A stretch of DNA of 38,128 nucleotides from Parcubacteria group bacterium (GTDB taxonomy: Bacteria; Patescibacteriota; Minisyncoccia; Moranbacterales; UBA11712): contig JBAZUC010000001.1 in the NCBI GenBank assembly GCA_041661585.1, forward strand, positions 1-38,128, written 5' to 3'. Under the pieces are notes generated by a model. That model had not been told where the DNA came from. It searched no databases and worked only from the letters and a program-made list of their open reading frames with translations. A program made the translations under genes and the position numbers. This document shows, piece after piece, positions 19,347 to 25,649 of the stretch (the first letter of the stretch is position 1; each line of letters begins with the position of its first letter).

Positions 19347-19937
19347 TCACCTTTTTTCCAATCGACGCTTCAATTCTCTGCCCCAAATATCATCTTTTAT
19401 ATTCAAAACATCGAAATATCCGTCGCCTCCGGTTCTCAATTCTTCCGAAACATTATTTTTTGACGAAAAAATATACACTTTTTTATCACGATTTCTCAAG
19501 TACGTAGCCAGAGCTAAAAAATCAGAATCACCGGAAAACAAAACGGCTGTATCATATTTTTTAATAAAATGCATCGCATCAATTGTCATTTCCACATCCA
19601 TATTTCCCTTTTCTTCAATAGATTGTCCGGCGTCAGTAACGATGGTAATCCGCTTTAATTCTTTTTTGCGCACCACGAATCCCAGTCCTTTATTGAGAAA
19701 AGTAAAAAATTTATGCTTCCCGTCCAAATTATAATTTCTGGTTCCGTCGGCGGGATAAGCGGTGTAATAAAAAATTTTTATATCTGAGACTTCGAATTTA
19801 TTCTTAATAAAATTTCTAAGCTTTTCGTAATCAAACATTTTTCCCTTTGCTTTCTGAGCCTGCCAAAGATTTGAAGCATCGACAAAAACATAAATCGCGC
19901 CCTTGCCTCCTGCTTCATTTTTATTTTGGATAAACAT
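19347..19937 (-). CDS. NYN/LabA-like (PIN-like) predicted ribonuclease
   Basis: YVFVDASNLW, ..KGNMDVEMTIDAM.., AVLFSGDSDFLALATYLR..KKVYIF; the classic LabA/NYN acidic-residue pattern. Confidence 0.85.
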   Translation of the reverse strand: MFIQNKNEAGGKGAIYVFVDASNLWQAQKAKGKMFDYEKLRNFIKNKFEVSDIKIFYYTAYPADGTRNYNLDGKHKFFTFLNKGLGFVVRKKELKRITIVTDAGQSIEEKGNMDVEMTIDAMHFIKKYDTAVLFSGDSDFLALATYLRNRDKKVYIFSSKNNVSEELRTGGDGYFDVLNIKDDIWGRELKRRLEKR

Positions 19938-19996
19938 GTTTTTTTGATTATTTTTTTCTTCCCTCCACCGTAATTTGAGATTAGCAAAATTTTATT

Positions 19997-20018
19997 TGTT
20001 ACGTAGCATGTTACGTAA
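19997..20018. promoter_or_regulatory. Operator-like repeat tgTTACGTA-N5-TTACGTAaca upstream of the NYN gene
   Basis: TTACGTA at 19999-20005 and 20011-20017 (12-nt period). The second copy is part of the 12-nt palindrome tgttacgtaaca. The same architecture occurs at 25618-25636. Confidence 0.5.
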
Positions 20019-20077
20019 CACGGAATTAGGGAAATTCAGGCAATGGATCATTCCGGGCTTTTTCGATCGATCTTTTT

Positions 20078-20135
20078 GAACTATTAAGAAATCCTTAATA
20101 GTTCAGCTCAATTTGAGCTATTCGGAATTTCCGAA
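20078..20135. repeat. Three abutting perfect palindromes
   Basis: gaactattaag-aaatc-cttaatagttc (20078-20104), agctcaa-t-ttgagct (20105-20119), ttcggaa-t-ttccgaa (20121-20135). Confidence 0.9.
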
Positions 20136-20286
20136 GAGTTCATTTTTTTGGTTCAAATGATATACTATCACTATATCACTATCTGAACCCCTGTCAAGCG
20201 CTTTTTGGCCGCTTTTGAAGACTATTTCCCAACATCGGATGCTGGAATGCGGTTGTGATTTGTGCCATAAGTCTTCCCATCATTGG

Positions 20287-20313
20287 CAGTTATCCGGAAA
20301 TTCCGGATAACTG
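20287..20313. repeat. 27-nt palindrome cagttatccggaa-a-ttccggataactg
   Basis: 13-nt perfect arms. It shares the GGAAWTTCC core with the palindrome at 20121-20135. Confidence 0.9.
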
Positions 20314-20393
20314 AATTCTCATTCAATTCTTGATCCAAAAAAATATTTTTAAAATGTTTATTGGTGATTCCCAAAGTTCAACTTTAGGAGGGG

Positions 20394-23259: not shown

Positions 23260-24822
23260 ATGGCAACTCTCACAAAGAGGCAAAAGCAAATATTCGAATT
23301 CATTAAATCATTCATAAGAAGGCATGGAATGTCCCCCACTATACGAGAGATAAAAAAAGCGACCGGGCTTTCCGCTCCATCGACTATCCATCAGCACATA
23401 AACGCGCTTGCTGAAAAAGGATTCATTGAAAAAAACGGGAGTTCATCGAGAGGCATAGAAATCAAAAAGGACAAAGGCGCCGATACGCTGGCTGAAATTT
23501 ATCTACTTGGGACAATAGCAGCCGGCCAGCCGATAGAAGCCGTTGAAGTTTTCACTGAAACAATTGCGATTCCGAGAAGCGACATCGACAGGCACGGAGA
23601 ATTGTATGCGTTGCGAGTACAGGGAGACAGCATGATTGAAGAGGGAATATTCGACGGAGATATTGTTGTTATAAAAAAACAATCAGCGGCAGAAAACGGA
23701 CAGACCGTTGTTGCGATAATCGATGACAACGAGGCGACGCTAAAAAAGCTATACAGGGAAAAGAACCGCCTAAGATTGCAACCCGCAAACCAAGCACTCC
23801 TCCCGCTCTACAGAAAGGAGGTTGAAATAAAGGGCGTCGTAATCAGAATTATAAGAAATTTTGAAAGCACGGAGAATAAGCGCATTAGAACGCTTGATCT
23901 TTTTGCCGGGGTTGGCGGCATACGCTTGGGCTTTGAGAAAGCAGGCTTTGAAACTGTCTTCGCCAATGACTTCGACCGGCAATGCAAAACTACTTATGAC
24001 TTGAATTTCAAGACCTCCAAACTTGTATCGGAAGACATCACTAAAGTTGGAATTGGCGATCTGCCTGACTTTGACTTTCTTCTGGCAGGCTTTCCTTGCC
24101 AGCCATTTTCTATTGCCGGATACAGGCAAGGCTTCAAGGATGAAGGGGGGCGCGGAAATTTATTCTTTACAATTGCGAGCATTATTGAAGCGAGAAATCC
24201 TGCCGGCTTCCTGCTCGAAAATGTCAAGAACTTAAAGGGCCACGACGGGGGCAAAACTTTTAAAATAATTACAGAAACTCTGAAAAGTTTGGGCTACCAT
24301 ATGAAATCCAAGGTATTAAACAGCATGGATTATGGAAATATTCCGCAAAACAGAGAAAGACTGTATATAGCAGGATTTAAAAATGAAAACTGCTTGGATA
24401 AATTTGAATTTCCTGCTCCGCAAAAATTGAAAATAAAAGTTGCAGATTTGCTGGAAAAAAATGTCCCAGAAAAATATTATTATAATGGAAAGCCTCTTTA
24501 TGAAAAACTTAAGAACTTTATAAAAGAAGGAGGAAAAGTTTATCAATGGAGGAGGCAATATGTCAGAGAAAATAAGAAGGGCGTATGCCCTACTTTAACA
24601 GCTAATATGGGAATGGGCGGCCACAATGTTCCAATCATTAAAGACAAAAAAGGAATCAGAAAACTGACTCCTCTTGAATGCTTCAGACTTCAAGGATTCC
24701 CGGAAGATTTCGCGCTTCCAAAAAATTTAGCTGACTCTGCATTATACAAGCAGGCTGGAAATTCAGTAAGCGTGCCTGTTATTGAAGCCGTAGCGAAGCA
24801 AATGATGAAGGCGATATCCTAG
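23260..24822 (+). CDS. Fusion protein: full-length LexA (wHTH + S24 autopeptidase) joined to a complete C5 cytosine DNA methyltransferase
   Basis: LexA part: LTKRQKQIFEFIKSFIRRHGMSPTIREIKKATGLSAPSTIHQHINALAEKGFIEK, cleavage-site GTIAAGQPI (A88-G89), GDSM (S124), EATLKKL (K162), GVVIRIIRNF. MTase part from ~aa 208: DLFAGVGGIRLGF (motif I), GFPCQPFS (IV, Cys280 at nt 24097-24099), LLENVKNL (VI), QNRERLYIAGF (VIII), RKLTPLECFRLQGFP, QAGNSVSVPV (X). Confidence 0.9.
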   Translation: MATLTKRQKQIFEFIKSFIRRHGMSPTIREIKKATGLSAPSTIHQHINALAEKGFIEKNGSSSRGIEIKKDKGADTLAEIYLLGTIAAGQPIEAVEVFTETIAIPRSDIDRHGELYALRVQGDSMIEEGIFDGDIVVIKKQSAAENGQTVVAIIDDNEATLKKLYREKNRLRLQPANQALLPLYRKEVEIKGVVIRIIRNFESTENKRIRTLDLFAGVGGIRLGFEKAGFETVFANDFDRQCKTTYDLNFKTSKLVSEDITKVGIGDLPDFDFLLAGFPCQPFSIAGYRQGFKDEGGRGNLFFTIASIIEARNPAGFLLENVKNLKGHDGGKTFKIITETLKSLGYHMKSKVLNSMDYGNIPQNRERLYIAGFKNENCLDKFEFPAPQKLKIKVADLLEKNVPEKYYYNGKPLYEKLKNFIKEGGKVYQWRRQYVRENKKGVCPTLTANMGMGGHNVPIIKDKKGIRKLTPLECFRLQGFPEDFALPKNLADSALYKQAGNSVSVPVIEAVAKQMMKAIS

Positions 24823-24832
24823 CCTCTGCGCT

Positions 24833-25414
24833 TTATACCTTGCAGTTTTCTTTAATTGGTTTTAATTTATTCCGTTCAATAATCTCCCCCTTAAAGTCAA
24901 TTCTCGGTCTTCTTTTTTGATCTTGCTGGTCCGATAATCTTTCATCCTTATTGACGCTGGATGTATAAATATATTTATCTGAAATTTTATATATATCAAA
25001 GGTTCCGTCCACCTCTCCGTTTCTAAAGAAATCCATCCAGTACAATTCGTCTTCATCCCAAAAAGATCTAGGGCCAAATGACGTAGGTCCGCGACTGCTT
25101 GAAGCTTTAATTTGCTGCCTTTTACTGCTTTTTAAATCAATTGTATCGAATGACCCCTTAGTGCCATGCGCTTTCAAAACTCTTACTGAACCCATCTCAA
25201 GGCAAAACAAGCTTTCGGTCAGCCCTTCGGGTATGTTAATGCCTCTTGCGCCAAAACTTCTTAATAGCTTGCTTAGCTTAATCCAGAGGTGAAATATTAT
25301 CTTCAGTTTGCGCCTATCTGATTTTAATATTTTTAAAATGTCCAATCTAACATCTTTTCCAGCTATTTTAATAATAATCTTCCCTTTTCTCATTTTCTTT
25401 ATTTTTTTAATCAA
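24833..25414 (-). CDS. Putative small type II restriction endonuclease, convergent partner of the methyltransferase
   Basis: The call rests mainly on context: convergent with the MTase, 10 nt apart, with vsr nearby. There is a possible PD-(D/E)xK-like SFDTID...RQQIKAS. I have a vague recollection of similarity to the Bsp6I family but cannot verify it. Confidence 0.4.
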   Translation of the reverse strand: MIKKIKKMRKGKIIIKIAGKDVRLDILKILKSDRRKLKIIFHLWIKLSKLLRSFGARGINIPEGLTESLFCLEMGSVRVLKAHGTKGSFDTIDLKSSKRQQIKASSSRGPTSFGPRSFWDEDELYWMDFFRNGEVDGTFDIYKISDKYIYTSSVNKDERLSDQQDQKRRPRIDFKGEIIERNKLKPIKENCKV

Positions 25415-25420
25415 TTATTT

Positions 25421-25600
25421 CTATTTACTCCTATAATCCCTAATCACCATTCCGCCTTTAATCCTCTTCACAACCACTCGCTGTTTTTCTTTCCATTTCA
25501 ATTCCCGTACGAGTTCAATCGGCAAGGTGAGTCCGATAGATCTCTTGCCGATCTTCGTCAGTTTGCGGATGCCTCTTTCCTCGGCTTTTTTGTTGGCCAT
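25421..25600 (-). CDS. AbrB/MazE/SpoVT-fold small DNA-binding protein (59 aa), 6 nt upstream of the REase-like gene
   Basis: MANKKAEERGIRKLTKIGKRSIGLTLPIELVRELKWKEKQRVVVKRIKGGMVIRD is a looped-hinge-helix pattern. I used the internal ATG at 25600 because the longer 144-aa ORF overlaps tspO. Confidence 0.7.
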   Translation of the reverse strand: MANKKAEERGIRKLTKIGKRSIGLTLPIELVRELKWKEKQRVVVKRIKGGMVIRDYRSK

Positions 25601-25617
25601 ATATTTGTTTTGAATAA

Positions 25618-25636
25618 TTACGTAATTAATTACGTA
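25618..25636. promoter_or_regulatory. Operator-like repeat TTACGTA-N5-TTACGTA directly upstream of the AbrB-like gene
   Basis: TTACGTA at 25618-25624 and 25630-25636 (12-nt period), 18-36 nt upstream of the ATG at 25600. The first copy is part of the palindrome aattacgtaatt. Confidence 0.5.
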
Positions 25637-25649
25637 TTTCCCAAATCCC

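What the first reader, a model, noticed from the sequence alone, without database searches (positions are those of the whole stretch)
19347..25649. AT-rich ~6.3-kb accessory (defence-type) island inserted in the origin-proximal core between DUF721 and tspO-dnaN-dnaA
On both sides lie conserved housekeeping genes: PBP1A and DUF721 on the left, tspO-dnaN-dnaA-oriC on the right. DUF721/DciA genes commonly sit in the dnaA-dnaN neighbourhood, so the intervening block looks inserted. By eye it is markedly more AT-rich than the flanks, especially 20.4-23.2 kb. It contains only nucleic-acid-targeting functions:
- a NYN RNase
- a HEPN protein
- an unknown protein
- a Schlafen/AlbA_2-like protein
- Vsr
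- a LexA-C5-MTase fusion
- an REase-like gene
- an AbrB-fold regulator
The island also carries two sRNA-like units and dense palindromes. No integrase, transposase or flanking direct repeat was found, so the mobility mechanism is unclear.
Basis: partly seen in the sequence, partly recalled or inferred. Interest (0 to 1): 0.7.

Follow-up and report, generated by a model that had tools for sequence, protein, structure and literature searches.

The report
Defence island beside oriC, LexA-methylase fusion
A roughly 7-kb AT-rich block between dnaN and dciA in this tiny-celled (CPR) bacterium is a patchwork of swappable anti-phage modules sitting in a genomic hotspot, and its restriction-modification methylase is fused to a complete LexA DNA-damage repressor, a widespread design I could not find described.

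Summary
The window is a whole 38,128-bp contig from a Candidatus Moraniibacteriota/Parcubacteria MAG. GC falls to 0.335 across 19169-23259, against 0.452 outside the island.

The insertion reading also holds. In five relatives dnaN directly abuts dciA-PBP1A. Four others carry entirely different cargo at that junction. One correction: tspO is cargo, so the variable interval is 19169-26120.

The island is a mosaic of separately circulating modules:
- an NYN RNase with a structured leader;
- an Rx4H, HEPN-like helical protein;
- a SLFN_AlbA_2 gene plus a partner with no fold match, a pair that elsewhere sits at the 3' end of other R-M operons;
- a type II R-M cassette (vsr, then lexA::C5-MTase, a Bsp6I-like REase and an AbrB-type controller);
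- tspO.

There is no integrase and no flanking repeat.

The most interesting part is the fusion. It is a full LexA with the Ala-Gly, Ser and Lys self-cleavage residues intact. Its promoter carries a conserved TTCGG-N6-TTCGG operator, often with a DnaA box upstream. Close homologues (68-93% identity) occur across CPR lineages in unrelated genomic contexts. LexA is also fused to three other architectures of DNA methylase. I infer DNA-damage-responsive autoregulation of methylase and Vsr; this is not shown.

Verdict: a defence island of an ordinary kind that carries a new variant of R-M control.

The parts
18833..19168 (-). dciA (DUF721), the left core flank of the hotspot
   Evidence: Pfam DciA 24.5 bits against a cutoff of 24. 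Syntenic with dciA next to dnaN in L005, L006, L008, L009 and L011.
19169..26120 (.). Variable-cargo interval (the island) between dciA and dnaN
   Evidence: Absent or replaced in 9 relatives. GC 0.368 against 0.452 outside. Homology to L003 and L001 ends at 26120/26122.
19237..19346 (+). sRNA-like unit: promoter TTGACA-16-TATACT with an extended TG, then two hairpins (19273-19299 and 19313-19342) followed by UUUAUUAU
   Evidence: Promoter 11/12 match. MFE -33.4 kcal/mol, z -5.8. No Rfam family at threshold. Not conserved in the loci held.
19347..19937 (-). NYN-domain (LabA-like) RNase gene
   Evidence: Pfam NYN 92.4 bits. PADLOC NYN 5.4e-11.
19938..20197 (-). NYN promoter (TTGACA-16-TATAGT, 20197-20170) and a structured leader of about 225 nt that contains TTACGTA-N5-TTACGTA at 19999-20017
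   Evidence: z -5.0. (motif expectation 0.08 per window).
20394..21134 (-). HEPN-like all-helical protein with an invariant Rx4H motif (R180, H185)
   Evidence: No Pfam or PDB match. 26 homologue clusters; the few that carry a source name are CPR. In L186 it lies directly after a type IIG/ISP R-M enzyme.
21226..21957 (-). Partner of the SLFN gene; fold not matched in PDB or BFVD
   Evidence: AF2 pLDDT 92.9, pTM 0.92. No Foldseek hit at E<=1e-3 in PDB or BFVD. Preceded by a SLFN_AlbA_2 gene in every homologue locus examined.
21962..22657 (-). SLFN_AlbA_2 (Schlafen-like) protein, the first gene of the two-gene module
   Evidence: Pfam 34.1 bits against a cutoff of 25.3. The module 21225-22658 is 79% identical in DNA to L188-L193, where it ends other R-M operons.
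22764..23168 (-). vsr (very-short-patch T:G mismatch endonuclease), divergent from the methylase gene
   Evidence: TIGR00632 108.8 bits against a cutoff of 97.85. A divergent Vsr is present in L015, L017/L018, L020, L180, L181 and L183.
23169..23259 (.). Divergent control region: DnaA box 23174-23182; -35 at 23190-23195; LexA box TTCGGTATTTATTCGG at 23197-23212; -10 at 23213-23218; minus-strand promoter TTGACT-17-TATAAT at 23255-23227
23260..24822 (+). lexA::C5 DNA methyltransferase fusion (LexA residues 1-200, a linker of about 10 aa, then the MTase)
   Evidence: Pfam. TIGR00498 lexA 197.7 bits and TIGR00675 dcm 330.5 bits. Catalytic A88-G89, S124 and K162 invariant. Closest solved MTase is M.HhaI.
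24833..25414 (-). Type II restriction endonuclease, Bsp6I-like (an ATG at 25393 is an alternative start)
   Evidence: Pfam RE_Bsp6I 46.5 bits against a cutoff of 25. PADLOC REase_II 2.3e-19. Same position in L017, L021, L022 and L025.
25421..25600 (-). AbrB/MazE-fold small regulator placed like a C (controller) protein upstream of the REase
   Evidence: Pfam MazE_antitoxin 24.5 bits, marginally under the 24.7 cutoff. Homologue in the same position in L015.
25618..25636 (.). TTACGTA-N5-TTACGTA palindromic operator candidate, 18-39 bp upstream of the abrB-type gene
   Evidence: L015 has GATATCTACGTAGATATC at the same place.
25650..26048 (-). tspO (132 aa from the ATG at 26048); cargo, not core
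   Evidence: Pfam TspO_MBR 107.9 bits. No TspO at this junction in L001-L014. 70.5% DNA identity to the tspO beside the same cassette in L180.
26121..27269 (-). dnaN, the right core flank. The probable oriC (four DnaA boxes) lies just beyond it at 27329-27471.
   Evidence: The cumulative GC-skew minimum is at about 25-26.5 kb.

Best explanation
The dnaN|dciA junction, about 1.2 kb from the probable oriC, is a cargo hotspot in Moraniibacteriota genomes. In this genome it holds a mosaic defence island assembled from small modules that circulate independently among CPR bacteria. There is no integrase or att repeat. The modules most likely enter and leave by homologous recombination through the conserved flanks, and by illegitimate or short-homology joining between modules (inferred).

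The functional core is a type II R-M cassette. A Bsp6I-like endonuclease is transcribed together with, and probably gated by, a small AbrB-fold controller that has a palindromic operator. The protective C5 methylase is made as a fusion to a complete LexA.

Proposed mechanism for the fusion:
1. The LexA part binds the TTCGG-N6-TTCGG operator. This operator lies between -35 and -10 of the fusion's own promoter and just downstream of the start of the divergent vsr promoter.
2. The fusion therefore represses both itself and vsr, and possibly the SLFN pair downstream of vsr.
3. DNA damage, including breaks from self-restriction when methylation lags, would activate RecA.
4. RecA would trigger cleavage at Ala88-Gly89, release the DNA-binding domain, and raise methylase and Vsr synthesis. 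This would be a self-protecting feedback loop.

The NYN, HEPN-like and SLFN-pair modules are probably RNA- or DNA-targeting accessory defence or abortive-infection effectors that travel with R-M systems.

What is shown: composition, synteny, domain content, catalytic residues, operator conservation and modularity. What is inferred: repression, RecA-dependent cleavage, feedback, the defence role of the non-R-M genes, and the recombination route.
For: Hotspot and insertion:
- Synteny and junction cargo.
- DNA-level boundaries.
- Composition.

Modularity:
- The cassette (vsr, lexA::M, REase, small regulator) lies in unrelated genomic contexts in L015, L017, L019-L023, L025 and L180-L183.
- The SLFN pair sits at the 3' end of two other kinds of R-M operon, encoding a partner protein that is identical in both kinds.
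- The HEPN-like gene lies directly after a type IIG enzyme in L186.

LexA integrity:
- Full-length match to the lexA equivalog model, 197.7 bits against a cutoff of 111.
- 35% identity to E. coli LexA, with A84-G85, S119 and K156 aligned to A88-G89, S124 and K162. All are invariant in 19 fusions.

Operator:
- TTCG[GT]-N6-TTCG[GT] occurs 16 times in 462 kb of CPR loci. Fourteen of those are directly before the -10 of lexA or lexA::M.
- L023 carries TTCGA in both half-sites.
- The same box fronts the stand-alone lexA of L007.

Other support:
- The vsr promoter overlaps the box.
- Horizontal spread: fusions are 68-93% identical across Moran-, Taylor- and Pace-bacteria and Microsyncoccus, whereas DnaN is 31% identical between this window and a Paceibacterota locus.
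- The principle is general: LexA is fused to an Eco57I-type MTase, to a D12 Dam-type MTase, and to a second C5 MTase.
- The controller position is filled by AbrB/MazE or HTH_3 proteins in sibling cassettes, and palindromic operators are present.
Against: - There are no expression, binding, cleavage or methylation data.
- A direct-repeat operator is unusual for a dimeric LexA.
- The motif was not found upstream of the one recA available (L189), so a wider SOS regulon is not shown.
- GCNGC is only mildly depleted (0.81), so the specificity is not verified.
- REases of different families sit under a methylase with a near-invariant target-recognition region. This is unexplained.
- PADLOC has no model matching the HEPN-like, SLFN or partner proteins.
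- The window is a MAG contig, and read-level continuity across the island borders could not be checked.
Confidence: 0.72

Rival explanations
1. The fusion is simply this organism's housekeeping LexA, the master SOS repressor, which happens to carry a methylase. On this view the 23.2-24.8 kb part is core regulation rather than defence, and the R-M cassette has captured the SOS regulator, which would also make the cassette hard to lose.
For: The operator is identical to that of the stand-alone lexA of L007. That lexA sits at the very same dnaN|dciA junction in the same orientation. NCBI names many fusions 'transcriptional repressor LexA'. The GC of the fusion gene (0.40-0.44) is close to the host's 0.45.
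Against: The cassette lies in unrelated contexts in every genome examined. It is far more conserved across CPR lineages than DnaN or DnaA, which indicates horizontal spread. The nearest relatives L001 and L003 have no lexA at this junction. No LexA box was seen outside lexA promoters, apart from two chance-like hits. Whether a second lexA exists in this genome could not be tested.
Confidence: 0.25
2. The block is ancestral core sequence that was lost in the relatives, and its AT-richness reflects relaxed or different selection rather than acquisition.
For: No integrase, att site or flanking repeat is present. The island lies next to oriC, in an otherwise conserved neighbourhood.
Against: The two closest relatives (96% and 90% DnaN identity) carry different, non-homologous cargo at the same point. 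Five more distant relatives have an empty junction. Each module recurs elsewhere in other contexts at 66-79% DNA identity. GC3 of 0.24-0.34 in the island contrasts with 0.52-0.57 in the flanking genes.
Confidence: 0.04
3. The island is an assembly or binning artefact: a chimeric join of an AT-rich fragment into a MAG contig.
For: The source is a metagenome-assembled contig. There is an abrupt composition change.
Against: Core genes of the same lineage flank the block on both sides in the expected orientation. The same 38,128-bp contig length is recorded by several sources. Close homologues of the island genes that carry a source name are all CPR/Patescibacteria. Other relatives also carry inserts at exactly this junction.
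Confidence: 0.03
4. The block is a degraded prophage or integrative element remnant.
For: R-M, Vsr and nuclease genes are common on mobile elements. In L017 a serine recombinase, and in L183 a tyrosine integrase, lie within a few kb of sibling cassettes.
Against: The island has no structural, replication, integrase or excision genes and no tRNA or att repeat. The IMG/VR scan returned only non-fused methylase relatives at 66% identity or less, and none of the fusions.
Confidence: 0.05

Closest known systems
Defence islands at conserved chromosomal hotspots (variable cargo between fixed core genes)
   Same: Fixed core flanks (dnaN, dciA-PBP1A). Different cargo in close relatives. Atypical composition. 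Clustering of R-M, toxin-antitoxin and nuclease genes.
   Different: No integrase or att site. The hotspot sits within about 1.2 kb of the probable oriC in a CPR genome. Cargo is built from very small modules of 1-4 genes that recombine individually.
C5 methylases with an N-terminal regulatory DNA-binding region (M.SsoII, M.Ecl18kI; PMC3978073, PMC2760811)
   Same: An N-terminal DNA-binding extension on a C5 MTase, with a conserved operator in the intergenic region shared with a divergently transcribed gene.
   Different: The extension here is a complete 200-aa LexA with an intact self-cleaving S24 domain, not a region of about 70 aa. The divergent partner is vsr rather than the REase. The REase is convergent and has its own regulator. 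The operator is a direct repeat.
LexA SOS repressor (TIGR00498)
   Same: Winged-helix DNA-binding domain, Ala-Gly cleavage site, Ser/Lys dyad, and an operator in its own promoter.
   Different: A DNA methylase is fused at the C-terminus. The gene travels inside a mobile R-M cassette. The wider regulon is unknown.
C-protein-controlled type II R-M systems (e.g. C.PvuII; PMC2175313)
   Same: A small regulator gene lies immediately upstream of the REase and in the same orientation, with a palindromic operator before it. Sibling cassettes have a true HTH_3 protein there.
   Different: In the window and in L015 the regulator has an AbrB/MazE (swapped-hairpin) fold instead of HTH_3.
Dcm-Vsr pair of E. 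coli (established knowledge)
   Same: A Vsr endonuclease is genetically linked to a C5 methylase, presumably to repair T:G mismatches from 5-methylcytosine deamination.
   Different: vsr is divergent and shares a LexA-type operator, rather than overlapping the 3' end of the methylase gene.
Prokaryotic Schlafen-domain defence proteins (Cash, PMC13462974; SLFN-pAgo, bioRxiv 10.64898/2026.05.29.728809)
   Same: Presence of a SLFN/AlbA_2 domain in a defence neighbourhood.
   Different: No CARF/Csx15, Argonaute or ATPase fusion. Instead there is a stand-alone 231-aa protein translationally coupled to a 243-aa partner of unmatched fold, attached to R-M operons.

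Membership tests
Genomic (defence) island in a hotspot | The flanking core genes are adjacent in related genomes | tested here: met
   dnaN is followed within 80 bp or less by dciA and then PBP1A in L005, L006, L008, L009 and L011.
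Genomic (defence) island in a hotspot | Cargo differs between close relatives at the same site | tested here: met
   L003, L001, L007 and L010 carry unrelated genes there.
Genomic (defence) island in a hotspot | Atypical base composition | tested here: met
   GC 0.335-0.368 against 0.452. Tetranucleotide distance is about twice the background.
Genomic (defence) island in a hotspot | Mobility genes or att repeats at the borders | tested here: not met
   No integrase or transposase domain, no tRNA, and no flanking repeat.
Type II R-M system, Bsp6I-like | A C5 methylase with the full set of conserved motifs | tested here: met
   PF00145 306 bits covering 1-323 of 324 profile positions. The FPCQ and ENV motifs are invariant.
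Type II R-M system, Bsp6I-like | A cognate endonuclease of the RE_Bsp6I family adjacent to the methylase | tested here: met
   PF09504 46.5 bits against a cutoff of 25; the gene is convergent and starts 10 bp from the end of the M gene. The same pairing occurs in L017, L021, L022 and L025, and with non-fused relatives in L100 and L101.
Type II R-M system, Bsp6I-like | GCNGC specificity of both enzymes | tested here: inconclusive
   The GCNGC observed/expected ratio of 0.81 is not distinctive. The closest solved MTase is M.HhaI, which recognises GCGC.
LexA (TIGR00498) | N-terminal LexA DNA-binding domain plus an S24 domain over the full model length | tested here: met
   197.7 bits against a cutoff of 110.95, covering model positions 1-202 of 203.
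LexA (TIGR00498) | Ala-Gly cleavage site and Ser/Lys catalytic dyad | tested here: met
   A88-G89, S124 and K162 align to E. coli A84-G85, S119 and K156 and are invariant in 19 sequences.
LexA (TIGR00498) | An operator in its own promoter (autoregulation) | tested here: met
   A conserved TTCGG-N6-TTCGG lies directly before the -10 in 13 of 13 fusion loci and in the L007 lexA. Binding itself was not tested.
LexA (TIGR00498) | RecA-stimulated self-cleavage and control of an SOS regulon | not testable with these tools
   This needs biochemistry or whole-genome regulon scans. Genome-wide scanning was not available.
LexA (TIGR00498) | A stand-alone protein of about 200 aa | tested here: not met
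   A 520-aa continuous ORF. All 120 listed top homologues of 513-547 aa have the same architecture.
M.SsoII-type self-regulating methylases | A short N-terminal HTH region that represses M and activates a divergent R gene | tested here: not met
   The N-terminal part is a full LexA. The divergent gene is vsr. R is convergent and has its own regulator.
C-protein-controlled R-M | An HTH_3 controller with a C-box upstream of the C-R operon | tested here: inconclusive
   Position and palindromic operator are met. The fold is AbrB/MazE, not HTH_3. HTH_3 proteins occupy that position in L019 and L183.
HEPN superfamily | An Rx4-6H motif in an all-alpha domain | tested here: met
   RNIIVH with R180 and H185 invariant. 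The AF2 model is all-helical, pLDDT 84.7.
HEPN superfamily | Sequence or structure match to a known HEPN family | tested here: not met
   No Pfam, NCBIfam or PADLOC hit. No Foldseek PDB hit at E<=1e-3.
Known PADLOC defence systems (for the NYN, HEPN-like, SLFN and partner genes) | A match to a system protein model | tested here: not met
   Only NYN matches, to the partial models PDLC01154 and HEC-09. The other three have no hit.

The most novel reading that the evidence does not exclude
LexA-methylase fusions, seen here with four different methylase architectures, may form a CPR-wide circuit that links the SOS signal to DNA modification. Breaks caused by the cell's own restriction enzyme, or by other damage, would cleave the fusion and raise methylase and Vsr, giving R-M systems a built-in self-damage sensor. 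In the stronger form, the fusion is the only LexA in these reduced genomes. A mobile R-M cassette would then have captured the master SOS regulator, making itself difficult to lose. The conserved DnaA box would further tie methylase expression to replication initiation.
Probability: 0.3. Interest if true: 0.8.

Novelty: new variant of a known kind. Interest (0 to 1): 0.6.

Why it matters
CPR/Patescibacteria are reported to largely lack CRISPR and to rely on R-M (my recollection of the literature, not checked here). How their reduced genomes organise and exchange defence genes is poorly known. This locus contributes four things:

1. A concrete integrase-free hotspot next to oriC, with cargo that differs between relatives sharing 96% DnaN identity.
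2. An R-M design in which the protective methylase carries a full self-cleaving LexA. This gives a directly testable route by which DNA damage could retune methylation.
3. A predicted CPR LexA operator, TTCGG-N6-TTCGG, that could be used to map SOS regulons in uncultured lineages.
4. A two-gene module (a Schlafen-like protein plus a partner of unmatched fold) that repeatedly attaches to unrelated R-M operons. It is a candidate new defence accessory.

I found no description of LexA-methylase fusions in the searchable literature, including a 2025 R-M review. The 2017 Environmental Microbiology paper on the Patescibacteria LexA network could not be read, so prior mention there cannot be excluded.

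Tried and rejected
- Rfam at gathering threshold on the whole window and at E<=1 on the island gave nothing usable. ARAGORN found no tRNA or tmRNA to serve as an integration target.
- The repeat search across 18.8-26.4 kb found only AT-rich, chance-level matches and no border repeats.
- Site-avoidance analysis for GCNGC and other short palindromes was uninformative.
- Foldseek of the HEPN-like model (PDB) and the partner model (PDB and BFVD) gave no significant match.
- The metagenome and IMG/VR scans seeded from the fusion alignment were dominated by generic C5-MTase motifs. They yielded only five further fusion loci and no viral fusion.
- A LexA box was not found upstream of the recA gene in L189.
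- The TACGTA-N6-TACGTA pattern (the TACGTA cores of the TTACGTA-N5-TTACGTA motif) was not found in any other locus held, so the proposed link between the AbrB-type regulator and the NYN promoter rests on this window alone.
- Literature searches for LexA-methylase fusions in Patescibacteria, CPR or Parcubacteria returned nothing relevant. The 2017 Patescibacteria LexA paper (PMID 28618189) is not held.
- I considered and rejected three readings: core-gene status for tspO, a prophage origin, and a single-event insertion.

Full report
SOURCE AND OBSERVATION

The window is an entire 38,128-bp contig of a MAG labelled 'Parcubacteria group bacterium'. Its DnaN is 55-96% identical to DnaN of Candidatus Moraniibacteriota MAGs.

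The composition claim is correct.
- GC drops to 0.32-0.35 in every 1-kb window from 19.0 to 23.5 kb.
- Over 19169-23259 GC is 0.335, and over 19169-26120 it is 0.368, against 0.452 outside.
- Outside the island, 4-kb windows have a mean of 0.451, an sd of 0.015 and a minimum of 0.420.
- Tetranucleotide distance to the rest of the contig is 0.26-0.35 inside the island and 0.12-0.19 elsewhere.
- By gene, GC3 is 0.24-0.36 for the NYN, HEPN-like, partner, SLFN, vsr and REase genes. It is 0.40-0.46 for the fusion gene, 0.57 for the abrB-type gene and 0.66 for tspO. In dnaN, dnaA and PBP1A it is 0.52-0.57.

GENE CONTENT

- DciA (18833-19168);
- NYN (19347-19937);
- SLFN_AlbA_2 (21962-22657);
- Vsr (22764-23168);
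- a single 520-aa ORF with LexA_DNA_bind, Peptidase_S24 and C5 DNA_methylase (23260-24822);
- an RE_Bsp6I-family endonuclease (24833-25414);
- an AbrB/MazE-fold protein;
- TspO and DnaN.

Three gene models need adjusting.
- The AbrB ORF as listed overlaps tspO. Its real start is most likely the ATG at 25600, giving 59 aa.
- tspO most likely starts at 26048, giving 132 aa, the same length as its homologue in L180.
- The REase may start at the ATG at 25393 rather than the TTG at 25414.

It has no Pfam hit even at E<=10 and no Foldseek PDB hit. I therefore call it HEPN-like only.

The 243-aa 'unknown' gives a very confident model (pLDDT 92.9, pTM 0.92) with no significant match in PDB or BFVD.

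IS IT INSERTED?

Yes. Eleven Moraniibacteriota-like loci were recovered with DnaN and compared by tblastn with the window's proteins.
- In L005, L006, L008, L009 and L011, dnaN is followed within 80 bp or less by dciA and then a convergent PBP1A. That adjacency is the simplest ancestral state.
- The window has 6,952 bp between the two genes.
- Other relatives have something else at the same point:
  - L003 (96% DnaN) has RadC, a Phd/ParE pair and a type I HsdR.
  - L001 (90%) has an alpha/beta hydrolase, a HAD hydrolase, a CDGSH protein and hemerythrin.
  - L007 has a stand-alone lexA translationally coupled to a 344-aa gene; this insert is also AT-rich (0.335 against 0.421).
  - L010 has a 379-aa protein.
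- At the DNA level, homology to L003 and L001 ends exactly at the dnaN stop (26120/26122) and resumes within dciA.
- No TspO homologue is present in any of these loci, so tspO belongs to the cargo.
- The cumulative GC-skew minimum and a cluster of four DnaA boxes at 27329-27471 put the probable oriC in the dnaA-dnaN spacer. The hotspot is separated from it only by dnaN.

MOSAIC STRUCTURE

Each piece of the island recurs on its own elsewhere.

(a) The R-M cassette. A divergent vsr, the lexA::M gene, an abutting convergent small nuclease gene, and often a small regulator are found beside pilMN, dnaG/rpoD, ftsZ, glycolysis genes, mraZ and others. The loci are L015, L017, L019-L023, L025 and L180-L183.
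- The nuclease is Bsp6I-like in the window, L017, L021, L022 and L025.
- It is PDDEXK_5 in L019, L180 and L183.
- It is an unannotated protein of 323, 299 or 176 aa in L015, L182 and L181.
- The regulator is AbrB/MazE in the window and L015, and HTH_3 in L019 and L183.
- In L180 (fusion 79% identical) a tspO lies two genes beyond the nuclease, as in the window. The vsr-to-tspO stretch may therefore have travelled together.

(b) SLFN_AlbA_2 plus the 243-aa partner (21225-22658). This pair is 79% identical in DNA to L188-L193. There the pair, with a partner protein that is identical across loci, is joined by 4-bp overlaps to the 3' end of two different R-M operons:
- HTH_3, a D12+N6_N4 methylase and a 463-aa protein;
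- a D12 methylase, an NmeDI_C nuclease and two unknowns.
The pairing also holds at 46-71% identity in L184 and L185.

(c) The HEPN-like gene follows a type IIG/ISP enzyme directly in L186, and follows unknown genes in L187.

(d) NYN and the two structured intergenic regions have no counterpart in the loci held.

There is no integrase, transposase, tRNA or border repeat.

THE LexA-METHYLASE FUSION

The N-terminal 201 residues match the NCBIfam lexA equivalog over its whole length (197.7 bits, cutoff 110.95). They are 35% identical to E. coli LexA. The cleavage site and dyad align (A88-G89, S124, K162) and are invariant in a 19-member alignment. About ten residues separate the LexA C-terminus from methylase motif I.

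The fusion is not an assembly accident. All 120 best database hits have the same three domains at 68-93% identity. Those that carry a source name are Patescibacteria, including Moran-, Taylor- and Pace-bacteria and Microsyncoccus. In the 50%-identity library the family collapses to essentially one cluster. DnaN is only about 31% identical between this window and a Paceibacterota locus, so the family has spread horizontally.

Non-fused relatives of the methylase (58-67% identical) exist, two of them with Bsp6I-like nucleases on viral contigs.

The same kind of LexA (about 60% identical) is also fused to other methylases:
- an Eco57I-type N6 methylase (P0344, 841 aa, named Patescibacteria by NCBI);
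- a D12 Dam-type methylase (P0367);
- another C5 methylase followed by an Eco57I-type segment (P0353).
The association between LexA and DNA methylases is therefore recurrent and not a single accident.

PROMOTER ARCHITECTURE

The 91-bp vsr/lexA::M spacer reads, in order:
- TGTGGATAAC, a perfect DnaA box;
- TTGCTA (-35);
- GTTCGGTATTTATTCGG;
- TATAAT (-10).

TTCG[GT]-N6-TTCG[GT] occurs 16 times in 462 kb of CPR loci. Fourteen are at this exact position in front of lexA::M, or in front of the stand-alone lexA of L007. L023 has TTCGA in both half-sites.

A strong minus-strand promoter (TTGACT-17-TATAAT, 23255-23227), also present in L015, would start vsr transcription just upstream of the box. A single bound repressor could therefore shut both directions.

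The DnaA box is perfect in 8 of 13 fusion promoters and in L007. It always lies 20-23 bp upstream of the LexA box. In the window the only other perfect copy is in the probable oriC.

THE REase SIDE

The abrB-type gene is preceded by TTACGTAATTAATTACGTA (25618-25636). L015 has GATATCTACGTAGATATC at the same place. This matches the logic of C-protein control (PMC2175313) with a different fold.

The exact pattern TTACGTA-N5-TTACGTA recurs once more in the window, 62-83 bp upstream of the NYN start (19999-20017). The expectation is 0.08. This hints that the same regulator touches the NYN promoter, but it has no support from other loci.

MECHANISM (INFERRED)

The cassette is a type II R-M system with two separate controls. 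An AbrB-type controller gates the nuclease. The methylase represses itself and vsr through its LexA domain.

The self-cleavage machinery is intact and conserved. DNA damage would therefore be expected to cut off the DNA-binding domain and derepress methylase and Vsr. Double-strand breaks from self-restriction are a known SOS trigger in model bacteria (established knowledge). The circuit would act as a feedback that restores protection.

Alternatively, the fusion may be the cell's only LexA.

The NYN, HEPN-like and SLFN-pair genes are plausibly RNA- or DNA-targeting accessory effectors. Prokaryotic Schlafen-domain proteins have recently been shown to act in immunity (PMC13462974; bioRxiv 10.64898/2026.05.29.728809). 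None of the three proteins matches a PADLOC model apart from partial NYN hits.

COMPARISON WITH KNOWN SYSTEMS AND NOVELTY

As an island, this is a normal defence-island hotspot, apart from its oriC-adjacent position, its lack of mobility genes and its fine-grained modularity.

The methylase resembles M.SsoII and M.Ecl18kI in having an N-terminal operator-binding extension (PMC3978073, PMC2760811), but it fails that family's defining features. The extension there is a short HTH region, and the regulated gene there is a divergent R gene.

The N-terminal part is a bona fide LexA by sequence but not by architecture.

I found no description of LexA-methylase fusions. A 270,000-character R-M review from 2025 does not mention LexA at all. 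NCBI annotates the window's gene as a 312-aa methylase only, while JGI calls the 520-aa product.

VERDICT

The island is a new member of a known kind. The LexA-coupled R-M control it carries is a new variant of a known kind and is the element most worth following up.

Noticed in passing
window 23174-23182; also L015, L020, L021, L022, L025, L180, L182 and L007: A perfect DnaA box, TGTGGATAA(C), lies 20-23 bp upstream of the LexA box in 8 of 13 lexA::methylase promoters and in a stand-alone lexA promoter. This suggests that DnaA has an input into lexA/methylase expression. The only other perfect copy in the window is in the dnaA-dnaN spacer.
   Followed up: partly
window 27329-27471: Four DnaA boxes (1 mismatch or fewer) cluster in the 260-bp dnaA-dnaN spacer, at the turn of the cumulative GC-skew curve. 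This is the probable oriC, and only dnaN separates it from the island.
   Followed up: partly
window 19999-20017 and 25618-25636: The exact pattern TTACGTA-N5-TTACGTA occurs twice (expected 0.08). One copy is upstream of the abrB-type controller and the other is upstream of the NYN gene, 5.6 kb away. This may indicate a shared regulator. The pattern was not seen in any other locus held.
   Followed up: partly
proteins P0344, P0353, P0367: LexA (about 60% identical to the window's LexA part) is also fused to an Eco57I-type N6 methylase (841 aa), to a D12 Dam-type methylase (502 aa), and to a second C5 methylase plus an Eco57I-type segment (777 aa). Their genomic contexts could not be fetched because the look-ups were exhausted.
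   Followed up: partly
window 21226-21957: The 243-aa partner of the SLFN gene gives a very confident AF2 model (pLDDT 92.9, pTM 0.92) that has no Foldseek match at E<=1e-3 in PDB or BFVD. It may be a new fold. There are 75 homologue clusters, and the few that carry a source name are CPR.
   Followed up: yes
L015, L019, L180-L183 compared with window 24833-25414: Nucleases of at least three unrelated families (Bsp6I-like, PDDEXK_5, and unannotated proteins of 176-323 aa) sit in the same convergent position under methylases whose target-recognition region is nearly invariant. Either these are isoschizomers swapped under one methylase, or some of them are not the cognate REase.
   Followed up: no
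L007 11450-13224: At the same dnaN|dciA junction a relative carries a stand-alone lexA with the same operator and DnaA box. It overlaps by 19 bp a 344-aa gene of unknown function, and the insert is AT-rich (0.335 against 0.421). This may be a pre-fusion 'lexA plus partner' arrangement.
   Followed up: partly
window 25650-26048; L180 10353-10751; L186 8322-8726; L025 1338-1727: tspO recurs near variable or defence regions in CPR contigs. In L180 and L186 (but not L025) YgjP-like genes also lie nearby, and a GIY-YIG gene does in L186. It behaves as accessory cargo rather than as a housekeeping gene.
   Followed up: partly
window 19237-19346 (+): There is a strong consensus promoter (TTGACA-16-TATACT with an extended TG), followed by a two-hairpin transcript of about 75 nt that ends in a 13-bp GC stem plus UUUAUUAU (z -5.8). 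It ends at the stop codon of the convergent NYN gene. It is a candidate sRNA with no Rfam match and no homologue in the loci held.
   Followed up: partly
window 23260-24822: Database annotation is inconsistent. NCBI lists only a 312-aa 'DNA cytosine methyltransferase' for this contig (MFA6193260.1), JGI lists the 520-aa product, and homologues are named either 'transcriptional repressor LexA' or 'DNA (cytosine-5)-methyltransferase 1'. Name-based searches will therefore miss the fusion.
   Followed up: yes
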